A stretch of 64,000 nt of DNA from Saccostrea cucullata (taxonomy: Eukaryota): assembly GCF_032062105.1 (NCBI RefSeq), contig NW_026936671.1:558001-622000 (forward strand), in the 5' to 3' direction. Position numbers: made by a program. Within the stretch, counting starts at the first letter, position 1; each line of letters begins with the position of its first letter. Positions 12,330 to 24,300 of this stretch are shown piece by piece.

Positions 12330-15300
12330 TAACTTGGGTGATGCAGATCTTTACCAGATTCCCCCTCTTGCTATACCAATCATGCCCAACAACCCCCTTC
12401 CCTTTTTTATTTAAAAACTTTAGAATCTACACTACCCAAGGATGCTTTCACATAAGTTTCAGCTTTCCTGGCCCAGGGGTTCTTGAGCAGAAGATTTTTA
12501 AAGATTTGTTCTATATATTTCTCGGTAATACTTGGATTCTCTACTGTGGCCCCGCCCTACCCCCGGGGGTCATGATTTAACAATTTAATATTTACACTAC
12601 CCAAGGATGCTTTCACATAAGTTTCAGCTTTCCTGGCCCAGTGGTTCTTGAAAAGAAGATTTTTAAAGATTTGTTCTATATATTTCTATGTAAAACTTGG
12701 ATTCCCTATTGTGGCCCCGCCCTACTCTTGGGGGTCATGATTTTAACAATTTAATATTTACACTACCCAAGGATGCTTCCACATAAGTTTCAGCTTTCCT
12801 GGCCCAGTGGTTCTTGAGAAGAAGATTTTTAAAGATTTCTTCTATATATTTCTAAGTAAAACTTGGATTCCCTATTGTGGCCCCACCCTACCCCCGGGGG
12901 TATTGATTTTAAAAATTTAATATCTACACTACCCAATGATGCTTCCACATAATTTCAGCTTTCCTGGCCCAGGGGTTCTTGAGAAGAAGATTTTTAAAGA
13001 TTTCTTCTATATATTTCTATGTTAAACTTGGATTCCCTATTGTGGCCCCGCCCTACCCCCGGGGGTCATGATTTAACAATTTAATATCTACACTACCCAA
13101 GGATGCTTCCACATAAGTTTCAGCTTTCCTGGCCCAGTGGTTCTTGAGAAGAATATTTTTAAAGACTTGTTCTGTATATTTCTATGTAAAACTTGGTTTT
13201 CCGATTGTGGCCCCGCCCTACCCCAGGGGTCATGATTTTAACAATTTAATATTTACACTACCCAAGGATGCTTCCACATAAGTTTCAGCTTTCCTGGCCC
13301 AGTGGTTCTTGAGCAGAAGATTTTTTAAGATTTCTTCTATATATTTCTATGTAAAACTTGGATTCCCTATTGTGGCCCCGCCCTACCCCCCGGGGTCATG
13401 ATTTTAAGAATTTAATATTTACACTACCCAAGGATGCTTCCACATAAGTTTCAGCTTTCCTGGCCCAGTGGTTCTTGAGAAGAAGATTTTTTAGTGACCC
13501 CACCCCATTTTTTTTTTATTAACTCCCCTTGTAAGGGGACTTGGCCCTTCATATTAACAATTTAAACTCCCCTTCACCCAAGAATGCTTTGTACCAAGTT
13601 TGGTTAAAATTGGCCCATTGGTTCTTGAGAAAAAGTCGAAAATGTGAAAAGTTTACAGACGGACGGACGACGGACAAAATGTGATCAGAAAAGCTCACTT
13701 GAGCCTTCAGCTCAGGTGAGCTAAAAAAAACATATCCTTATAACATTATAATACTGTTGATCACCAAATATTTGCAGACCCTAGTGGTATTTTTAGGATT
13801 TAAAAAGCCAGACATTATTTTCACAATTGCTGGTTTTTTGCTGTATATATTCTATACTATTAAAAAGCAAGAGAATCAAATCCATGCAAGCAAACCCTCT
13901 TGCATAAAATAAAGTTCTTTCAAATCCAAAGTGATTTACAATACAATGAAAAGTGAAAAACTTGTAATTAGATCTACAGTGTGTTTTTAATAGATTGTAC
14001 ATTAAAAATCCATGTAAATACCTAACGTCACTGACTTTAGGAAGAATTTGCAAATTTTTCACTTTTTCACGATTTTCCAGTTTCCATATTAGCACACTCC
14101 CATCGCAACTGGCAGAGGCCTACAAGAGTATAAAATATTAGTCAAGAAATATTCTCAGATCCCAACCATTCTTATGCTTTTTTTCCTTTCAATCAAGCTA
14201 ATAGTAGCTTACATTTGGATGTATGTTTAATAAAAGTAGCTAACATTTAGATGTATGTTTCATAAACAATCAGTGACCATAACAGATTTGTGTGGGAGGA
14301 ATCCCCTTGTGGGGGGAAGGGGGGGAGGTACTCACCAGAAACTCCTCTTTGGGGTCCATAGCTACACTCAATACAGGGGCCTCGTGTCCCTCAAATTTCT
14401 TAGTGTCCCCTGTTGCAATGTTGACCATTTTGATTGTAAAGTCACTGAAATATGACATTTAAAAATGTTAGGCCCATTTTTCTTCAACTTTCAAGAATTT
14501 ATTGAAATTATTTTTCCGTAATTTTAATTTATTCTTAGCAATAAGGTGTAATATGCATGGGGGTTGGACTTTAGAATATTGCATATTAATTAATCACAGG
14601 CTGATGGTGAAGTGTTTGTAAGTGAAGTAAAGTAGCATCCAGTTGTAAATCTATAAGAAATGTTTTATTGTTGATGTTATTTCATTATCTTATTGTTTAC
14701 TTGAATTATTGATGCAATACACATTGCACTTCGACATTGTATTAATGTAAACAAATGCTGTTTTTGTGTTACTAGACGATCTAGCGAGATATTGTTGAAC
14801 AGACAGTAAGGGACAGTGATACTGAGATGTTGTATGTCAGTTTTTCATCATTATCTACCATATTACGACTGTAATTTACTTACTTATTTCAGCATTATCA
14901 CATGTGTTGTAAATTGGGCGCCTGCCATCTTTCTTACGAAGAAATTAGTCATGTGACATAAACATTGTTGTTTTACAATTGATAAGATCGAAATAACACT
15001 GTCCGTGTCCTCAAATATTCATAATTGATACTTAAATGTTATTTTATTGCAGTATTGTCATTTAATTATGCTGTATTTGACGAAATGTTTTGGAACTTGA
15101 ATGTGTAGCGTAATACTTATGTGTTTGCATTATTGTTCGGTATTACTACGCCATGGATTGTGTGTGTCCGTTTTATTACAGATTGTTTGTTGAACTTGTT
15201 TTCTAATGTATATCGAATAGAATTTATAGCTCCCACTTTACATGTAGAAAGGACATTTTGAGCGATGTTATTTTCTTTGTATTACACAAAATGTATGTAA

Positions 15301-21300: not shown

Positions 21301-24300
21301 AACTCTCAAAGGAAACTAGCTCTAACATACAGCCTGCAACCTCTGACATTCAGGATGTAAATGGGAATTTAATAGAGAACATCAGGACCATTGTACTGGA
21401 TGTATCTTTTGGGAAAGAAGCATTGCCACACAAATTTGGAATTTGCAAAATTTCACAAGACAGGATCTTTGGAAAGGACTTTCTTCTTAACTACATCACA
21501 AAGATAAATTGCCAAAGGATGGGTTTGCTGTATTAACTTCAAAATGAAAAGGACCTTGTAACAGGACAACCAGATGACTTGACTTAATTTATAGGATAGG
21601 TTGATGATATATCAAGGCATCAACTTACAACCCTGGTTCAGGAAGTTCATACCACAAAATTAAATGATGTCAGACAGTAGTATGATGATACCAGATTTTT
21701 TGTTTTATTATATTGACACATGTCTATGAAGGATGTTGTCCTAGGTGGTGCACCACACTAGGTGAATGTGTAGATAGTGACTGGCCATTACTATTAGTGC
21801 ACATTAGGACCTCAGTTGTCTAGGGCTGGGCCGGACTGCAGGTGGACCTCAGTTGTCTAGGGCTGGGCCGGACTGTAGGTGCATGGACATCAGTTGTCTA
21901 GGATTAGACGGGACTGATGGGAAACAGTTGTCTAGGGCTGGGCCGGACTGATACTTTTGTTGATTTCAATCTACTACTGGAATAAAATTATAAATGGATA
22001 ATTGATGTCACTTCCTGATCCTGGGAGGAATCTACAAAAACAATGAAGAATAAGACCCGACTGATTGACTGACTGATTCCCATAGGAACCTACCTTTATC
22101 AACTACATGCATTCAATTCTAACAAGAATAATCCAAATCTTGTACTAGCTTATGCACAGGGAGCTGTATACTTTATACATGGGATGGATGGTGTATTTTC
22201 ATGGTGGAGACGTAGAGATGGAGACAGAAGTAGCAGAGAGACGAGATGGAGAGATGGAGACAGAAGTAGCAGAGAGACGAGACGAAGAGATGGAGACAGA
22301 AGTAGCAGAGAGACGAGACGGAGAGATGGAGACAGAAGTAGCAGAGAGACGAGACAGTGAGATAGAGACAGAAGTAGCTGAAATGGTATCAGACGAGCAG
22401 GCAGATGTGTGAGATTTACCGAAAGAAGCGGTCCAGTGCAGGAAGAATAAAGATTTCATTGATGATGGAAGTAAGAAACTAGCAGAACCAGACGATTTTG
22501 ATTAATACTGTAAATTCAGGAGAATTTGACTTTTTAAGTGGGGGGAAGTGTAATATGCATGGGGGTTGGACTTTAGAATATTGCATATTAATTAATCACA
22601 GGCTGATGGTGAAGTGTTTGTAAGTGAAGTAAAGTAGCATCCAGTTGTAAATCTATAAGAAATGTTTTATTGTTGATGTTATTTCATTATCTTATTGTTT
22701 ACTTGAATTATTGATGCAATACACATTGCACTTCGACATTGTATTAATGTAAACAAATGCTGTTTTTGTGTTACTAGACGATCTAGCGAGATATTGTTGA
22801 ACAGACAGTAAGGGACAGTGATACTGAGATGTTGTATGTCAGTTTTTCATCATTATCTACCATATTACGACTGTAATTTACTTACTTATTTCAGCATTAT
22901 CACATGTGTTGTAAATTGGGCGCCTGCCATCTTTCTTACGAAGAAATTAGTCATGTGACATAAACATTGTTGTTTTACAATTGATAAGATCGAAATAACA
23001 CTGTCCGTGTCCTCAAATATTCATAATTGATACTTAAATGTTATTTTATTGCAGTATTGTCATTTAATTATGCTGTATTTGACGAAATGTTTTGGAACTT
23101 GAATGTGTAGCGTAATACTTATGTGTTTGCATTATTGTTCGGTATTACTACGCCATGGATTGTGTGTGTCCGTTTTATTACAGATTGTTTGTTGAACTTG
23201 TTTTCTAATGTATATCGAATAGAATTTATAGCTCCCACTTTACATGTAGAAAGGACATTTTGAGCGATGTTATTTTCTTTGTATTACACAAAATGTATGT
23301 AAAGTAGTTCCGAGTTGCTCCAGAAAGGACAATTATTCATTGGTTGTTGTGATCACGTGACCATTTATGGAAGGTTATATATATGAGCAGCGAACGCCAG
23401 TTTCATCACAACGATCATAACGATCAGATCGTATTACGTCATCAACATCACTGACTGTAAATTACTAGCGACTTAGGTATGAGAAAATAATGTAAACTAA
23501 TACAAAATAAGTAGCGTATAATTTCTCCACCGCACGGACACCGCAATCCACTGTATTTTATTAGGCCAGAGATGTTAAGCTAGGACTTTATATACTCATA
23601 GATGTATTGACTGTTTTGTTATATTTCATTGAACTTTGAAGTCTTTATTAAATGAAATATTTGAAACGAGAAATGGAACTTGGTTATGATTTACAGGAAT
23701 GTGAAGTAAATTATCAAGGGTGTTTAAATACATGCGATGGGCTGAGGATGCCCCCCCCCCTTTTATTATGTGGACGGATGTCATGAGTAGTCCTGATATA
23801 AAATATAATTAACTGAATTTACACGGGATGGAAACATTGTAAGCTGATTGGCATTTGACAGGGTGCTGAGGAAGCTTACAAAGGGTTTATATCATGTTTT
23901 ATGAATAAAATGTAAAGAAAGCAAAAAAAAAAAATCACAAAACTGTTAAATACATACTGTACAGTTTAATGACATGGCAAAAACATTGTCCAATTTAAAT
24001 GTTAGTAGGAAATGGAACTCAAACAAAGGTGATAATTAATAATAAATCAATTATACATTGTATACAACATTTCATTTTCAGAGAGCACCCAGATAATTCA
24101 AATATTTGAAATTTCCCAATGAATAGTTCTTATTCCATACATAACATTGCATTAAATTTCTCTTTATTAATGATAAAAAAAAATACGATTTAGAATTCTC
24201 CATAAGACAACACACATCTCCTTGTTTCTCTATTATTCATAATTATCAAAATGTTCTTTTCATCTACAAGATGTAATTCCAATTTCTCAACCTTCCTGCT

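What the first reader, a model, noticed from the sequence alone, without database searches (positions are those of the whole stretch)
14547..23880. Three-LTR tandem retrotransposon sharing a central LTR, inside an essential gene
Seen: LTR-int-LTR-int-LTR with an exact 4001-bp period, a single AAGG TSD pair around the whole array, and LTRs identical by eye except for one C in a homopolymer. Established: normal integration yields two LTRs, while shared-LTR tandems arise by unequal LTR-LTR recombination, recombination with a 1-LTR circle, or read-through reverse transcription. Inference: a very recent insertion that has begun tandem amplification and expanded WDHD1 intron 3 from about 0.5 kb to 9.9 kb. 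Each LTR also adds several AATAAA hexamers on the host sense strand (TTTATT on +, e.g. 15642-15647) and an antisense promoter.
Basis: partly seen in the sequence, partly recalled or inferred. Interest (0 to 1): 0.72.

Follow-up and report, generated by a model that had tools for sequence, protein, structure and literature searches.

The report
Tandem three-LTR retrotransposon in oyster WDHD1
A young, defective LTR retrotransposon sits as two units sharing a middle LTR inside an intron of an oyster DNA-replication gene; such tandems are already known in plants, flies, yeasts and bivalves, so this is a clean example rather than a new kind of thing.

Summary
Window 14547-23880 reads LTR-internal-LTR-internal-LTR: 1331, 2670, 1331, 2670 and 1332 bp. 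LTR starts are 4001 bp apart, ends are TG..CA, and one AAGG pair flanks the whole array. LTR1 and LTR2 are identical; LTR3 has one extra C.

They differ by 10 substitutions, all within 715 bp and 8 within 160 bp. Simple LTR-LTR exchange within one element does not predict this.

The element is non-autonomous. It keeps Gag-like pieces with a CCHC knuckle and lacks reverse transcriptase and integrase. Its relatives are bivalve Gag and Gag-Pol proteins.

It lies antisense in the third coding intron of an oyster WDHD1/Ctf4 gene, which grows from 537 to 9875 bp.

My preferred origin is joining of two slightly different cDNA-derived copies (about 0.38). Rivals are unequal exchange plus a conversion tract (about 0.32) and an assembly artefact (about 0.25).

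The poly(A)-hexamer enrichment is mild, and the antisense promoter has no support. Shared-LTR tandems are already described, so this is a new member of a known kind.

The parts
14543..14546 (.). Left copy of the 4-bp target-site duplication (AAGG)
14547..15877 (+). LTR1, 1331 bp with TG..CA ends. A TATA-like run lies at 15374 and the only A[AT]TAAA on the element's own strand at 15645.
15883..15900 (+). Primer-binding-site-like stretch starting with TGG, five bases after LTR1. The same stretch follows LTR2 at 19884-19901.
   Evidence: The tRNA partner was not identified: the window holds 0 tRNA genes.
15878..18547 (+). Internal region 1, 2670 bp
16063..17532 (+). Broken Gag-like gene with a protease-like tail, copy 1. 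It includes a CCHC zinc knuckle. It is read in four segments with at least three changes of frame relative to a single-ORF relative.
17570..17729 (+). Variable patch holding 8 of the 10 differences between the two internal regions. Its counterpart is 21571-21730.
17806..17950 (+). 37-bp tandem repeat, 3.9 copies, non-coding. Copy 2 is at 21807-21951.
18206..18377 (+). 36-bp tandem repeat, 4.8 copies. It holds the other 2 differences (18246 and 18284). Copy 2 is at 22207-22378.
18535..18547 (+). Polypurine tract, 12 of 13 bases purine, abutting LTR2. The same tract lies at 22536-22548 before LTR3.
18548..19878 (+). LTR2, the shared central LTR, identical to LTR1
19879..22548 (+). Internal region 2, 2670 bp, with 10 substitutions relative to region 1
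20064..21533 (+). Broken Gag-like gene with a protease-like tail, copy 2, identical to copy 1
22549..23880 (+). LTR3, 1332 bp, with one extra C in the poly-C run
23881..23884 (.). Right copy of the target-site duplication (AAGG)
14445..24319 (-). Host intron holding the array, 9875 bp with GT..AG ends. It is 537 bp without the array and one duplication copy.
24320..24471 (-). Host coding exon 3 of the WDHD1/Ctf4-family gene (residues about 62-112 of the oyster relatives)
14336..14444 (-). Host coding exon 4 (residues about 113-148). Its acceptor lies about 100 bp from the array.

Best explanation
This is a real, very young insertion of a non-autonomous LTR retroelement. Its Gag relatives are bivalve Gag proteins, and one of them is a Ty3-type Gag-Pol polyprotein. 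The element lies antisense in the third coding intron of an oyster WDHD1/Ctf4 gene, as two units that share the central LTR. Shown: the anatomy, the single 4-bp duplication, internal junctions identical to the outer ones, the missing polymerase genes, and the ten clustered differences between the two internal regions. Inferred: because the two internal regions are not copies of each other while all three LTRs are, the tandem was most likely made from two slightly different reverse-transcribed copies. One route is homologous recombination or annealing of a sibling cDNA (linear or one-LTR circle) with a copy that had just integrated here. The other is integration of a two-unit concatemer. Either leaves one duplication pair and a shared LTR. 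The proteins for copying must come from an autonomous relative elsewhere in the genome. For the host, the array is 9.3 kb of extra intron that leaves both flanking exons, their splice sites and the roughly 100 bp upstream of the acceptor untouched.
For: Structure. The LTR-internal junctions carry no extra bases, and the PBS-like and polypurine stretches are the same at the inner and outer junctions. Differences: 0 of 1331 between LTR1 and LTR2 and one homopolymer base in LTR3, against 10 of 2670 between the internal regions, all within 715 bp. The chance that all 10 fall in the internal region under uniform mutation is about 0.001, and 0 of 200000 simulations placed 8 of 10 within 160 bp. At 3 of the 10 sites, region 1 has CpG where region 2 has CpA or TpG, as expected if one tract comes from an older, diverged copy. 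Diverged family copies exist: two Saccostrea cucullata proteins are 90% and 88% identical to one Gag segment. Published parallel: in fission yeast, cDNA inserted at resident elements gives tandems separated by a single LTR, including hybrid tandems found in wild isolates (PMC11042837, passages). Non-autonomy: of 7 open segments scanned in Pfam, only a CCHC knuckle passed its cut-off. The four segments are collinear with residues 9-377 of P0153, whose RT lies at 607-767. The window has no N and no other large duplication.
Against: No read data are available, so the array could be an assembly product. Unequal LTR-LTR exchange is the most commonly proposed route to such tandems (PMC5932611 and PMC11899658), and a later conversion tract would explain the differences equally well. 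Two sibling copies that differ only within one 715-bp stretch themselves require an earlier mosaic event. No other copy of the family could be examined at DNA level: none lies in the window, and no eukaryotic genome collection was on hand.
Confidence: 0.38

Rival explanations
1. Unequal homologous exchange took place between the 5' and 3' LTRs of one ordinary two-LTR insertion, on sister chromatids or homologues. It produced the three-LTR array, with a solo LTR as the reciprocal product. Afterwards one internal region received a conversion tract of at least 715 bp from a diverged family member elsewhere in the genome.
For: This is the route most often proposed for LTR-element tandems (PMC5932611 Fig. 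1A legend and LTR section; PMC11899658 discussion; PMC6934838 discussion). The single duplication pair, the shared LTR and the exact period are what it predicts. All 10 differences fit one tract.
Against: It needs two separate events within a time too short for any substitution in 3 x 1.33 kb of LTR or in the remaining 1955 bp of each internal region outside the 715-bp interval. On its own it predicts identical internal regions, which is not what is seen.
Confidence: 0.32
2. The array is an assembly artefact. The true locus is one two-LTR element (5.3 kb). The assembler went round the LTR-internal loop twice, and the ten differences are heterozygous variants or reads from paralogous copies mixed in during consensus polishing.
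For: The 1.3-kb LTRs are identical and could support a false join. The two internal regions have exactly the same length. The only LTR difference is a homopolymer length, a typical consensus error. I recall, from no call, that oyster genomes are highly heterozygous.
Against: The window has no N and no other duplicated block longer than 1 kb, and the flanks are not duplicated, as they would be in a retained haplotig. Two alleles of the same young insertion should not differ by 5% over 160 bp either. Real arrays of this form are common where reads were checked (PMC11899658 section 8: four reads spanned a rice tandem).
Confidence: 0.25
3. The structure comes from two independent insertions, side by side or nested, or is a plain 4-kb tandem duplication or macrosatellite unrelated to retrotransposition.
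For: None beyond the repeat itself.
Against: Two insertions would give four LTRs or an extra duplication at the inner junction. Here there are three LTRs, no extra bases at the inner junctions and one AAGG pair. The repeat unit has TG..CA LTR ends, a TGG-starting stretch after each LTR, a polypurine tract before each LTR and Gag-like coding pieces in the right order and strand.
Confidence: 0.03

Closest known systems
Tandem LTR-retrotransposon insertions with shared internal LTRs in plants (e.g. rice TLI1; PMC11899658, abstract and sections 8 and 13 read)
   Same: LTRs and internal regions alternate, one duplication pair surrounds the whole array, and no duplication sits at the inner junctions. 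The internal regions are not identical. Gypsy-type elements are over-represented there. The origin (complex insertion versus illegitimate recombination) is left open by the authors.
   Different: This one is in an animal (oyster). It is much younger: LTRs are 100% identical, against 85-89% in TLI1. It is non-autonomous, lies inside a gene intron, and has not been confirmed by spanning reads.
Tandem Tf1/Tf2 elements of fission yeast formed by integrase-independent cDNA insertion at resident elements (PMC11042837, passages read)
   Same: Two units are separated by a single LTR. Hybrid tandems whose two units differ are the signature of a cDNA joining a resident copy.
   Different: That pathway was shown genetically in yeast. 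Here it is only inferred from ten sequence differences, and no recombination factor or intermediate was observed.
Tandemly arranged terminal-repeat retrotransposons in miniature of bivalves (biv-TRIM, pattern TDRx_I(x-1); PMC6934838, passages read)
   Same: The host group is also bivalves, the n-repeats / n-minus-1-internal-domains pattern is the same, and both are non-autonomous.
   Different: TRIMs are tiny and non-coding. This unit has 1.33-kb LTRs and a 2.67-kb internal region with Gag-like pieces, and only two units.
LTR-element tandems in Drosophila populations (PMC5932611, passages read)
   Same: Those are shared-LTR tandems in an animal, ascribed there mainly to recombination between LTRs.
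   Different: They were detected from short-read junctions, so internal regions were not compared. The family and host differ.
Gag-only non-autonomous LTR elements of plants ('TR-GAG'; seen only in the listing, definition recalled)
   Same: Long terminal repeats surround an internal region whose only recognisable coding content is Gag-like.
   Different: Here the Gag reading is interrupted, a short protease-like tail remains, and the host is an animal.

Membership tests
LTR retrotransposon (structural definition) | Direct long terminal repeats ending TG..CA | tested here: met
   Three LTRs of 1331, 1331 and 1332 bp, each starting TG and ending CA.
LTR retrotransposon (structural definition) | Short target-site duplication flanking the insertion | tested here: met
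   AAGG at 14543-14546 and 23881-23884.
LTR retrotransposon (structural definition) | Primer binding site complementary to a tRNA 3' end next to the 5' LTR | tested here: inconclusive
   A TGG-starting stretch lies five bases after LTR1 and LTR2. No tRNA was available for comparison: ARAGORN found 0 in the window and Rfam gave 0 matches.
LTR retrotransposon (structural definition) | Polypurine tract abutting the 3' LTR | tested here: met
   A 13-base tract with 12 purines lies directly before LTR2 and LTR3.
Autonomous LTR retrotransposon | Encodes reverse transcriptase, RNase H and integrase | tested here: not met
   Pfam on 7 plus-strand open segments of at least 40 codons in the internal region found no RT, RNase H or integrase. 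The coding pieces stop at the equivalent of residue 377 of P0153, whose RT starts at 607.
Ty3/gypsy (Metaviridae) lineage | Pol domain order protease-RT-RNase H-integrase | tested here: inconclusive
   The element has no pol to examine. The only long relative with pol domains is P0153, with RVT_1 and RT_RNaseH_2, named 'Transposon Ty3-I Gag-Pol polyprotein' by its source.
Ty3/gypsy (Metaviridae) lineage | Gag homologous to Gag of elements of that lineage | tested here: met
   The four segments match P0153 residues 9-86 (69%), 85-215 (61%), 235-273 (44%) and 300-377 (41%). Caveat: of 20 relatives scanned, one (P0005) gave a sub-threshold match to DUF1759, which I recall as typical of BEL/Pao Gag.
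Shared-LTR tandem LTR-retrotransposon array | n LTRs alternating with n-1 internal regions, in register, with nothing else at the inner junctions | tested here: met
   Three LTRs and two internal regions at a 4001-bp period, with inner junctions identical to the outer ones.
Shared-LTR tandem LTR-retrotransposon array | One target-site duplication around the whole array | tested here: met
Shared-LTR tandem LTR-retrotransposon array | Array present in the genome, shown by single reads spanning it | not testable with these tools
   No reads were available.
TRIM (terminal-repeat retrotransposon in miniature) | Very small size with short terminal repeats and a non-coding internal domain (definition recalled) | tested here: not met
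   The LTR is 1331 bp, and the internal region is 2670 bp with Gag-like pieces.
LARD (large retrotransposon derivative) | Internal domain without any coding capacity (definition recalled) | tested here: not met
   Gag-like segments with a CCHC knuckle are present.
WDHD1 / AND-1 / Ctf4 family (host gene) | N-terminal WD40 propeller, Mcl1 middle region and Ctf4 C-terminal domain, in that order | tested here: met
   Eleven separate open segments on the minus strand match WD40_WDHD1_1st, Mcl1_mid and Ctf4_C in order. Named oyster WDHD1-like proteins align exon by exon from residue 1 to about 926. The HMG box would lie beyond the window start and was not seen.

The most novel reading that the evidence does not exclude
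The locus is a near-birth snapshot, in an animal germline, of a tandem made in one step from two non-identical reverse-transcribed copies. Either a sibling cDNA joined a just-integrated copy, or a two-unit concatemer integrated. This would be natural evidence that the integrase-independent, recombination-based route shown in fission yeast also builds shared-LTR tandems in metazoans. It would bear on the question left open for plant tandems of whether they arise at insertion or by later exchange.
Probability: 0.3. Interest if true: 0.5.

Novelty: new member of a known kind. Interest (0 to 1): 0.3.

Why it matters
Shared-LTR tandems are known, but how they form is still open (PMC11899658, discussion). 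An array this young, with no LTR substitutions, keeps the traces of its origin. Here the two internal regions differ in one short tract while the LTRs do not. That argues against the simplest exchange model and can be checked with reads and a family census. The locus also shows a 9.3-kb antisense insertion about 100 bp from a splice acceptor of a conserved replication gene. This makes it a convenient place to look, by expression data alone, at whether such insertions disturb splicing or 3'-end choice. If the array proves to be an assembly product, it is a useful warning for repeat annotation in heterozygous bivalve genomes.

Tried and rejected
Other copies in the window: blastn of the 4001-bp unit, and of the 221-bp stretch around the variable patch, gave 0 significant hits outside 14547-23880. 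Only 16-28-bp chance matches appeared.

Naming the Gag fold: Pfam gave no capsid family for any of the 7 segments, only zf-CCHC above its cut-off. The solved-structure search gave 1 irrelevant hit at E = 0.52.

Exact copies of the element's three ATG-started ORFs in the protein collection: 0 of 3 found.

tRNA partner of the PBS-like stretch: 0 tRNA genes and 0 Rfam matches in the window.

Intra-element source for the variable patch: none found.

Two differences in the 36-bp repeat as copying between repeat units: by eye, in the sequence shown, neither new variant occurs in another unit. I made no script check of this.

Double or nested insertion and plain macrosatellite: rejected from the junctions.

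Literature on LTR tandems in oysters: one search matched 494 papers loosely. None of the 12 listed titles concerns such tandems, so this is weak evidence that none is described. Bivalve TRIM tandems are described.

Not available: any eukaryotic genome or read collection. Supplementary files of the papers were closed; the supplementary tables of tandems in PMC11899658 and PMC5932611 might list comparable cases with non-identical internal regions.
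Full report
**1. The observation**

A direct-repeat search of 13000-25500 found 300-base families present three times at a spacing of 4001 and 4001 bases. The 3' end of the repeat recurs at 4001 and 4002.

Locating the LTR ends and aligning the pieces gives this layout:
- LTR1: 14547-15877 (1331 bp)
- Internal region 1: 15878-18547 (2670 bp)
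- LTR2: 18548-19878 (1331 bp)
- Internal region 2: 19879-22548 (2670 bp)
- LTR3: 22549-23880 (1332 bp)

Each LTR starts TG and ends CA. AAGG lies immediately outside both ends of the array and nowhere at the inner junctions. LTR1 and LTR2 are identical in 1331 of 1331 positions. LTR3 differs only by a run of ten C instead of nine.

The window has no N. In a self-comparison of the window, this is the only repeat longer than 1 kb among 16 pairs of at least 150 bp.

**2.

The two internal regions have the same length but differ by 10 substitutions. Eight lie within 160 bp (17570-17729). The other two lie in a 36-bp tandem repeat, at 18246 and 18284. All ten fall within 715 bp.
- With 10 substitutions spread uniformly over the 5332 compared columns, the chance that none falls in an LTR is about 0.001.
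- In 0 of 200000 simulations did 8 of 10 random sites fall within 160 bp of a 2670-bp region.
- At 3 of the 10 sites, region 1 has CpG where region 2 has CpA or TpG.

The differences are thus not ordinary mutations gathered since a duplication. One internal region carries a tract from a somewhat diverged relative.

**3. What the element is**

Directly after LTR1 and LTR2, five bases in, comes a stretch that starts with TGG. Directly before LTR2 and LTR3 comes a 13-base tract with 12 purines. These are the usual places of a primer binding site and a polypurine tract. The tRNA partner could not be named, because the window gave 0 tRNA genes and 0 Rfam matches.

Between them, on the plus strand, lie Gag-like coding pieces. 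Of 7 open segments scanned in Pfam, one carries a CCHC zinc knuckle above the curated cut-off (22.1 bits against 20.8). None carries reverse transcriptase, RNase H or integrase.

The first segment has 1759 relatives at E up to 0.001 among 1.84 billion representative proteins (189 at 1e-10, 1 at 1e-30). The best 150 are 81-731 residues long. Twenty of those 150 were scanned in Pfam:
- 7 have zinc-knuckle families.
- 1 has retroviral aspartyl protease families.
- 1 has a sub-threshold DUF1759 match.
- 11 have nothing.

A search restricted to longer proteins gave 17 hits among 363 candidates. One hit, P0153, carries RVT_1 and RT_RNaseH_2, and its source names it 'Transposon Ty3-I Gag-Pol polyprotein [Mytilus coruscus]'.

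The element's four reading segments match P0153 in order:

| Segment | P0153 residues | Identity |
|---|---|---|
| 1 | 9-86 | 69% |
| 2 | 85-215 | 61% |
| 3 | 235-273 | 44% |
| 4 | 300-377 | 41% |

The reverse transcriptase of P0153 begins at residue 607, so the equivalent of everything after residue 377 is missing here.

I read the last segment as a protease-like remnant because it follows the D-S-G stretch visible in P0153. That motif reading is recalled, and Pfam did not call a protease there.

Counting breaks, the Gag-plus-tail gene is read in four segments with at least three changes of frame relative to P0153. Reverse transcriptase, RNase H and integrase are absent through deletion. Both copies carry the same state, since every difference between them lies downstream of the coding remnants. 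P0153 is a predicted gene model, so one of the frame changes could be the family's natural gag/pol shift. I cannot tell.

The closest named relatives of the second segment are two Saccostrea cucullata proteins, at 90% and 88% identity over 99% of the segment (38 hits among 87 candidates). The family therefore has diverged copies in oysters. The element's own three ORFs are not in the protein collection (0 of 3).

In short, this is a non-autonomous LTR retroelement of a bivalve Gag family that is probably Ty3/gypsy-type. It depends on an autonomous relative for its enzymes.

**4. Where it sits**

I searched the host gene exon by exon and did not join the exons.

Of the 197 minus-strand open segments of at least 45 codons outside the array, the first 99 were scanned at E up to 0.01. 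Fourteen had Pfam matches:
- 11 match WD40_WDHD1_1st, Mcl1_mid or Ctf4_C, in the order expected for a WDHD1/AND-1/Ctf4 gene running from about 25.5 kb down to the window start.
- 3 are DEAD-box helicase pieces at 35.8-39.8 kb.

The other 98 segments gave nothing at E up to 0.001.

One exon searched against longer proteins gave 8 hits among 42 candidates. The best named ones are 'WD repeat and HMG-box DNA-binding protein 1-like' of Ostrea edulis (87%) and Crassostrea virginica (88%).

Aligning those two named proteins to the window places the coding exons as follows:

| Exon | Residues | Window position |
|---|---|---|
| 1 | 1-25 | 25516-25442 |
| 2 | 22-71 | 25225-25076 |
| 3 | 62-112 | 24474-24322 |
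| 4 | 113-153 | 14446-14324 |

The array is therefore in the third coding intron, and the residues on its two sides are consecutive. Read on the host strand, exon 3 is 24471-24320 followed by GT, and exon 4 is 14444-14336 preceded by AG.

The intron is 9875 bp. Without the 9334-bp array and one copy of AAGG it would be 537 bp. The element is antisense to the gene, and its nearest end is about 100 bp upstream of the exon-4 acceptor.

The window is oyster-like. Nothing in it, or among the sequences I used, was taken for human.

**5.

TTTATT on the plus strand (AATAAA for the host) occurs as follows:

| Region | Count | Per kb |
|---|---|---|
| Each LTR | 6 | 4.5 |
| Whole array | 22 | 2.4 |
| Rest of the window | 84 | 1.5 |
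| Rest of the gene (11.3 kb) | 20 | 1.8 |

So there is a mild enrichment, in a gene whose introns already hold many such hexamers. No effect on 3'-end choice can be inferred.

On its own strand, the LTR has no AATAAA and a single ATTAAA at 15645, downstream of a TATA-like run at 15374. That would fit a weak terminator, which one paper mentions as a possible aid to read-through tandem transcripts (PMC11899658, discussion). This is inference only. No call bears on an antisense promoter. That the gene is essential is recalled from other organisms and was not tested.

**6. How the tandem arose**

The structure rules out two independent or nested insertions. There are three LTRs rather than four, no extra bases or duplication at the inner junctions, and one AAGG pair.

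Three readings remain.

(a) *Two templates.* One internal region comes from a sibling cDNA. Either it recombined or annealed with a copy that had just integrated here, or it was part of a two-unit concatemer integrated in one step. Both leave exactly this anatomy and naturally give non-identical internal regions. [quoted passage not shown] Ty1 and Ty5 work with the same drift is known to me only from that paper's text and reference lists.

(b) *Unequal exchange.* The 5' and 3' LTRs of one insertion exchanged unequally, which is the route most often proposed (PMC5932611, passages; PMC11899658, discussion; PMC6934838, discussion). An ectopic conversion tract of at least 715 bp followed. This needs two events within a time in which no LTR substitution occurred.

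(c) *An assembly loop traversed twice.* The differences would come from heterozygosity or from paralogous reads. Against this, the window has no gaps and no other false-looking duplication, and two alleles of one young insertion should not differ by 5% over 160 bp. Without reads it cannot be excluded.

I put these at about 0.38, 0.32 and 0.25.

**7. Comparison with what is known**

Shared-LTR tandems with one duplication pair are described in several groups:
- Rice and other plants: 266 in a rice pangenome, one confirmed by four spanning reads, with the mechanism left open (PMC11899658; abstract and sections 8 and 13 read).
- Drosophila (PMC5932611, passages).
- Fission yeast (PMC11042837, passages).
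- Bivalves, as TRIM arrays of the form n repeats / n-1 internal domains (PMC6934838, passages).

The present case is a new member of that kind. It is in an oyster and a larger, Gag-bearing, non-autonomous element. It is extremely young, intronic and antisense in a conserved replication gene. A search for such tandems in oysters listed nothing pertinent among 12 titles out of 494 loose matches, which is weak evidence of absence.

**8. Limits**

Neither the family's other DNA copies nor an empty or solo-LTR allele could be examined. The Ty3/gypsy assignment rests on Gag similarity to one pol-bearing predicted protein. The age statement is only that no substitution separates 1331-bp LTRs; I give no date because no mutation rate came from a call.

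**9. Verdict**

This is a tidy and very young example of a known kind of structure. The one informative extra is that the two internal regions differ, which reads and a family census could turn into evidence about how such tandems form. Interest 0.3.

Noticed in passing
window 12428-13491: A 165-bp satellite, 6.4 copies at 92-93% identity, inside the WDHD1 intron between coding exons 5 and 6. Its size recalls known bivalve satellite families, but that is recall only and no comparison was made.
   Followed up: no
window 28657-29964 (+): One open segment of 436 codons with an SH2 domain and a SOCS box, head-to-head with the WDHD1 gene about 3 kb upstream of its first coding exon. I recall that vertebrate WDHD1 also neighbours a SOCS gene, which would be old microsynteny. 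Not tested.
   Followed up: no
window 35797-39797 (-): Exons of a DEAD-box helicase, with DEAD and Helicase_C matches on three separate open segments.
   Followed up: no
window 46234-46557 (+): An open segment matching the C-terminal part of Rrp15p, E = 6.7e-14.
   Followed up: no
window 62700-63998 (+): An open segment of 433 codons with a B-box zinc finger, running to within two bases of the window end.
   Followed up: no
window 44452-45971: Inverted repeat arms of about 290 bp at 86-89% identity (44562-44849 against 45685-45971), plus short tandem copies, possibly a transposon remnant.
   Followed up: no
proteins P0175, P0176, P0189: Relatives of the element's Gag segment (51-55% identity) are labelled as proteins of bacterial metagenome-assembled genomes ('Candidatus Thiodiazotropha'). 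Most likely this is host bivalve DNA binned with a symbiont rather than a bacterial gene.
   Followed up: no
window 17806-17950 and 18206-18377 (and copy 2): The non-coding 3' third of the internal region holds two tandem-repeat blocks, of 37-bp and 36-bp units. It has no similarity to pol or to anything else in the window, and its origin is unexplained.
   Followed up: partly
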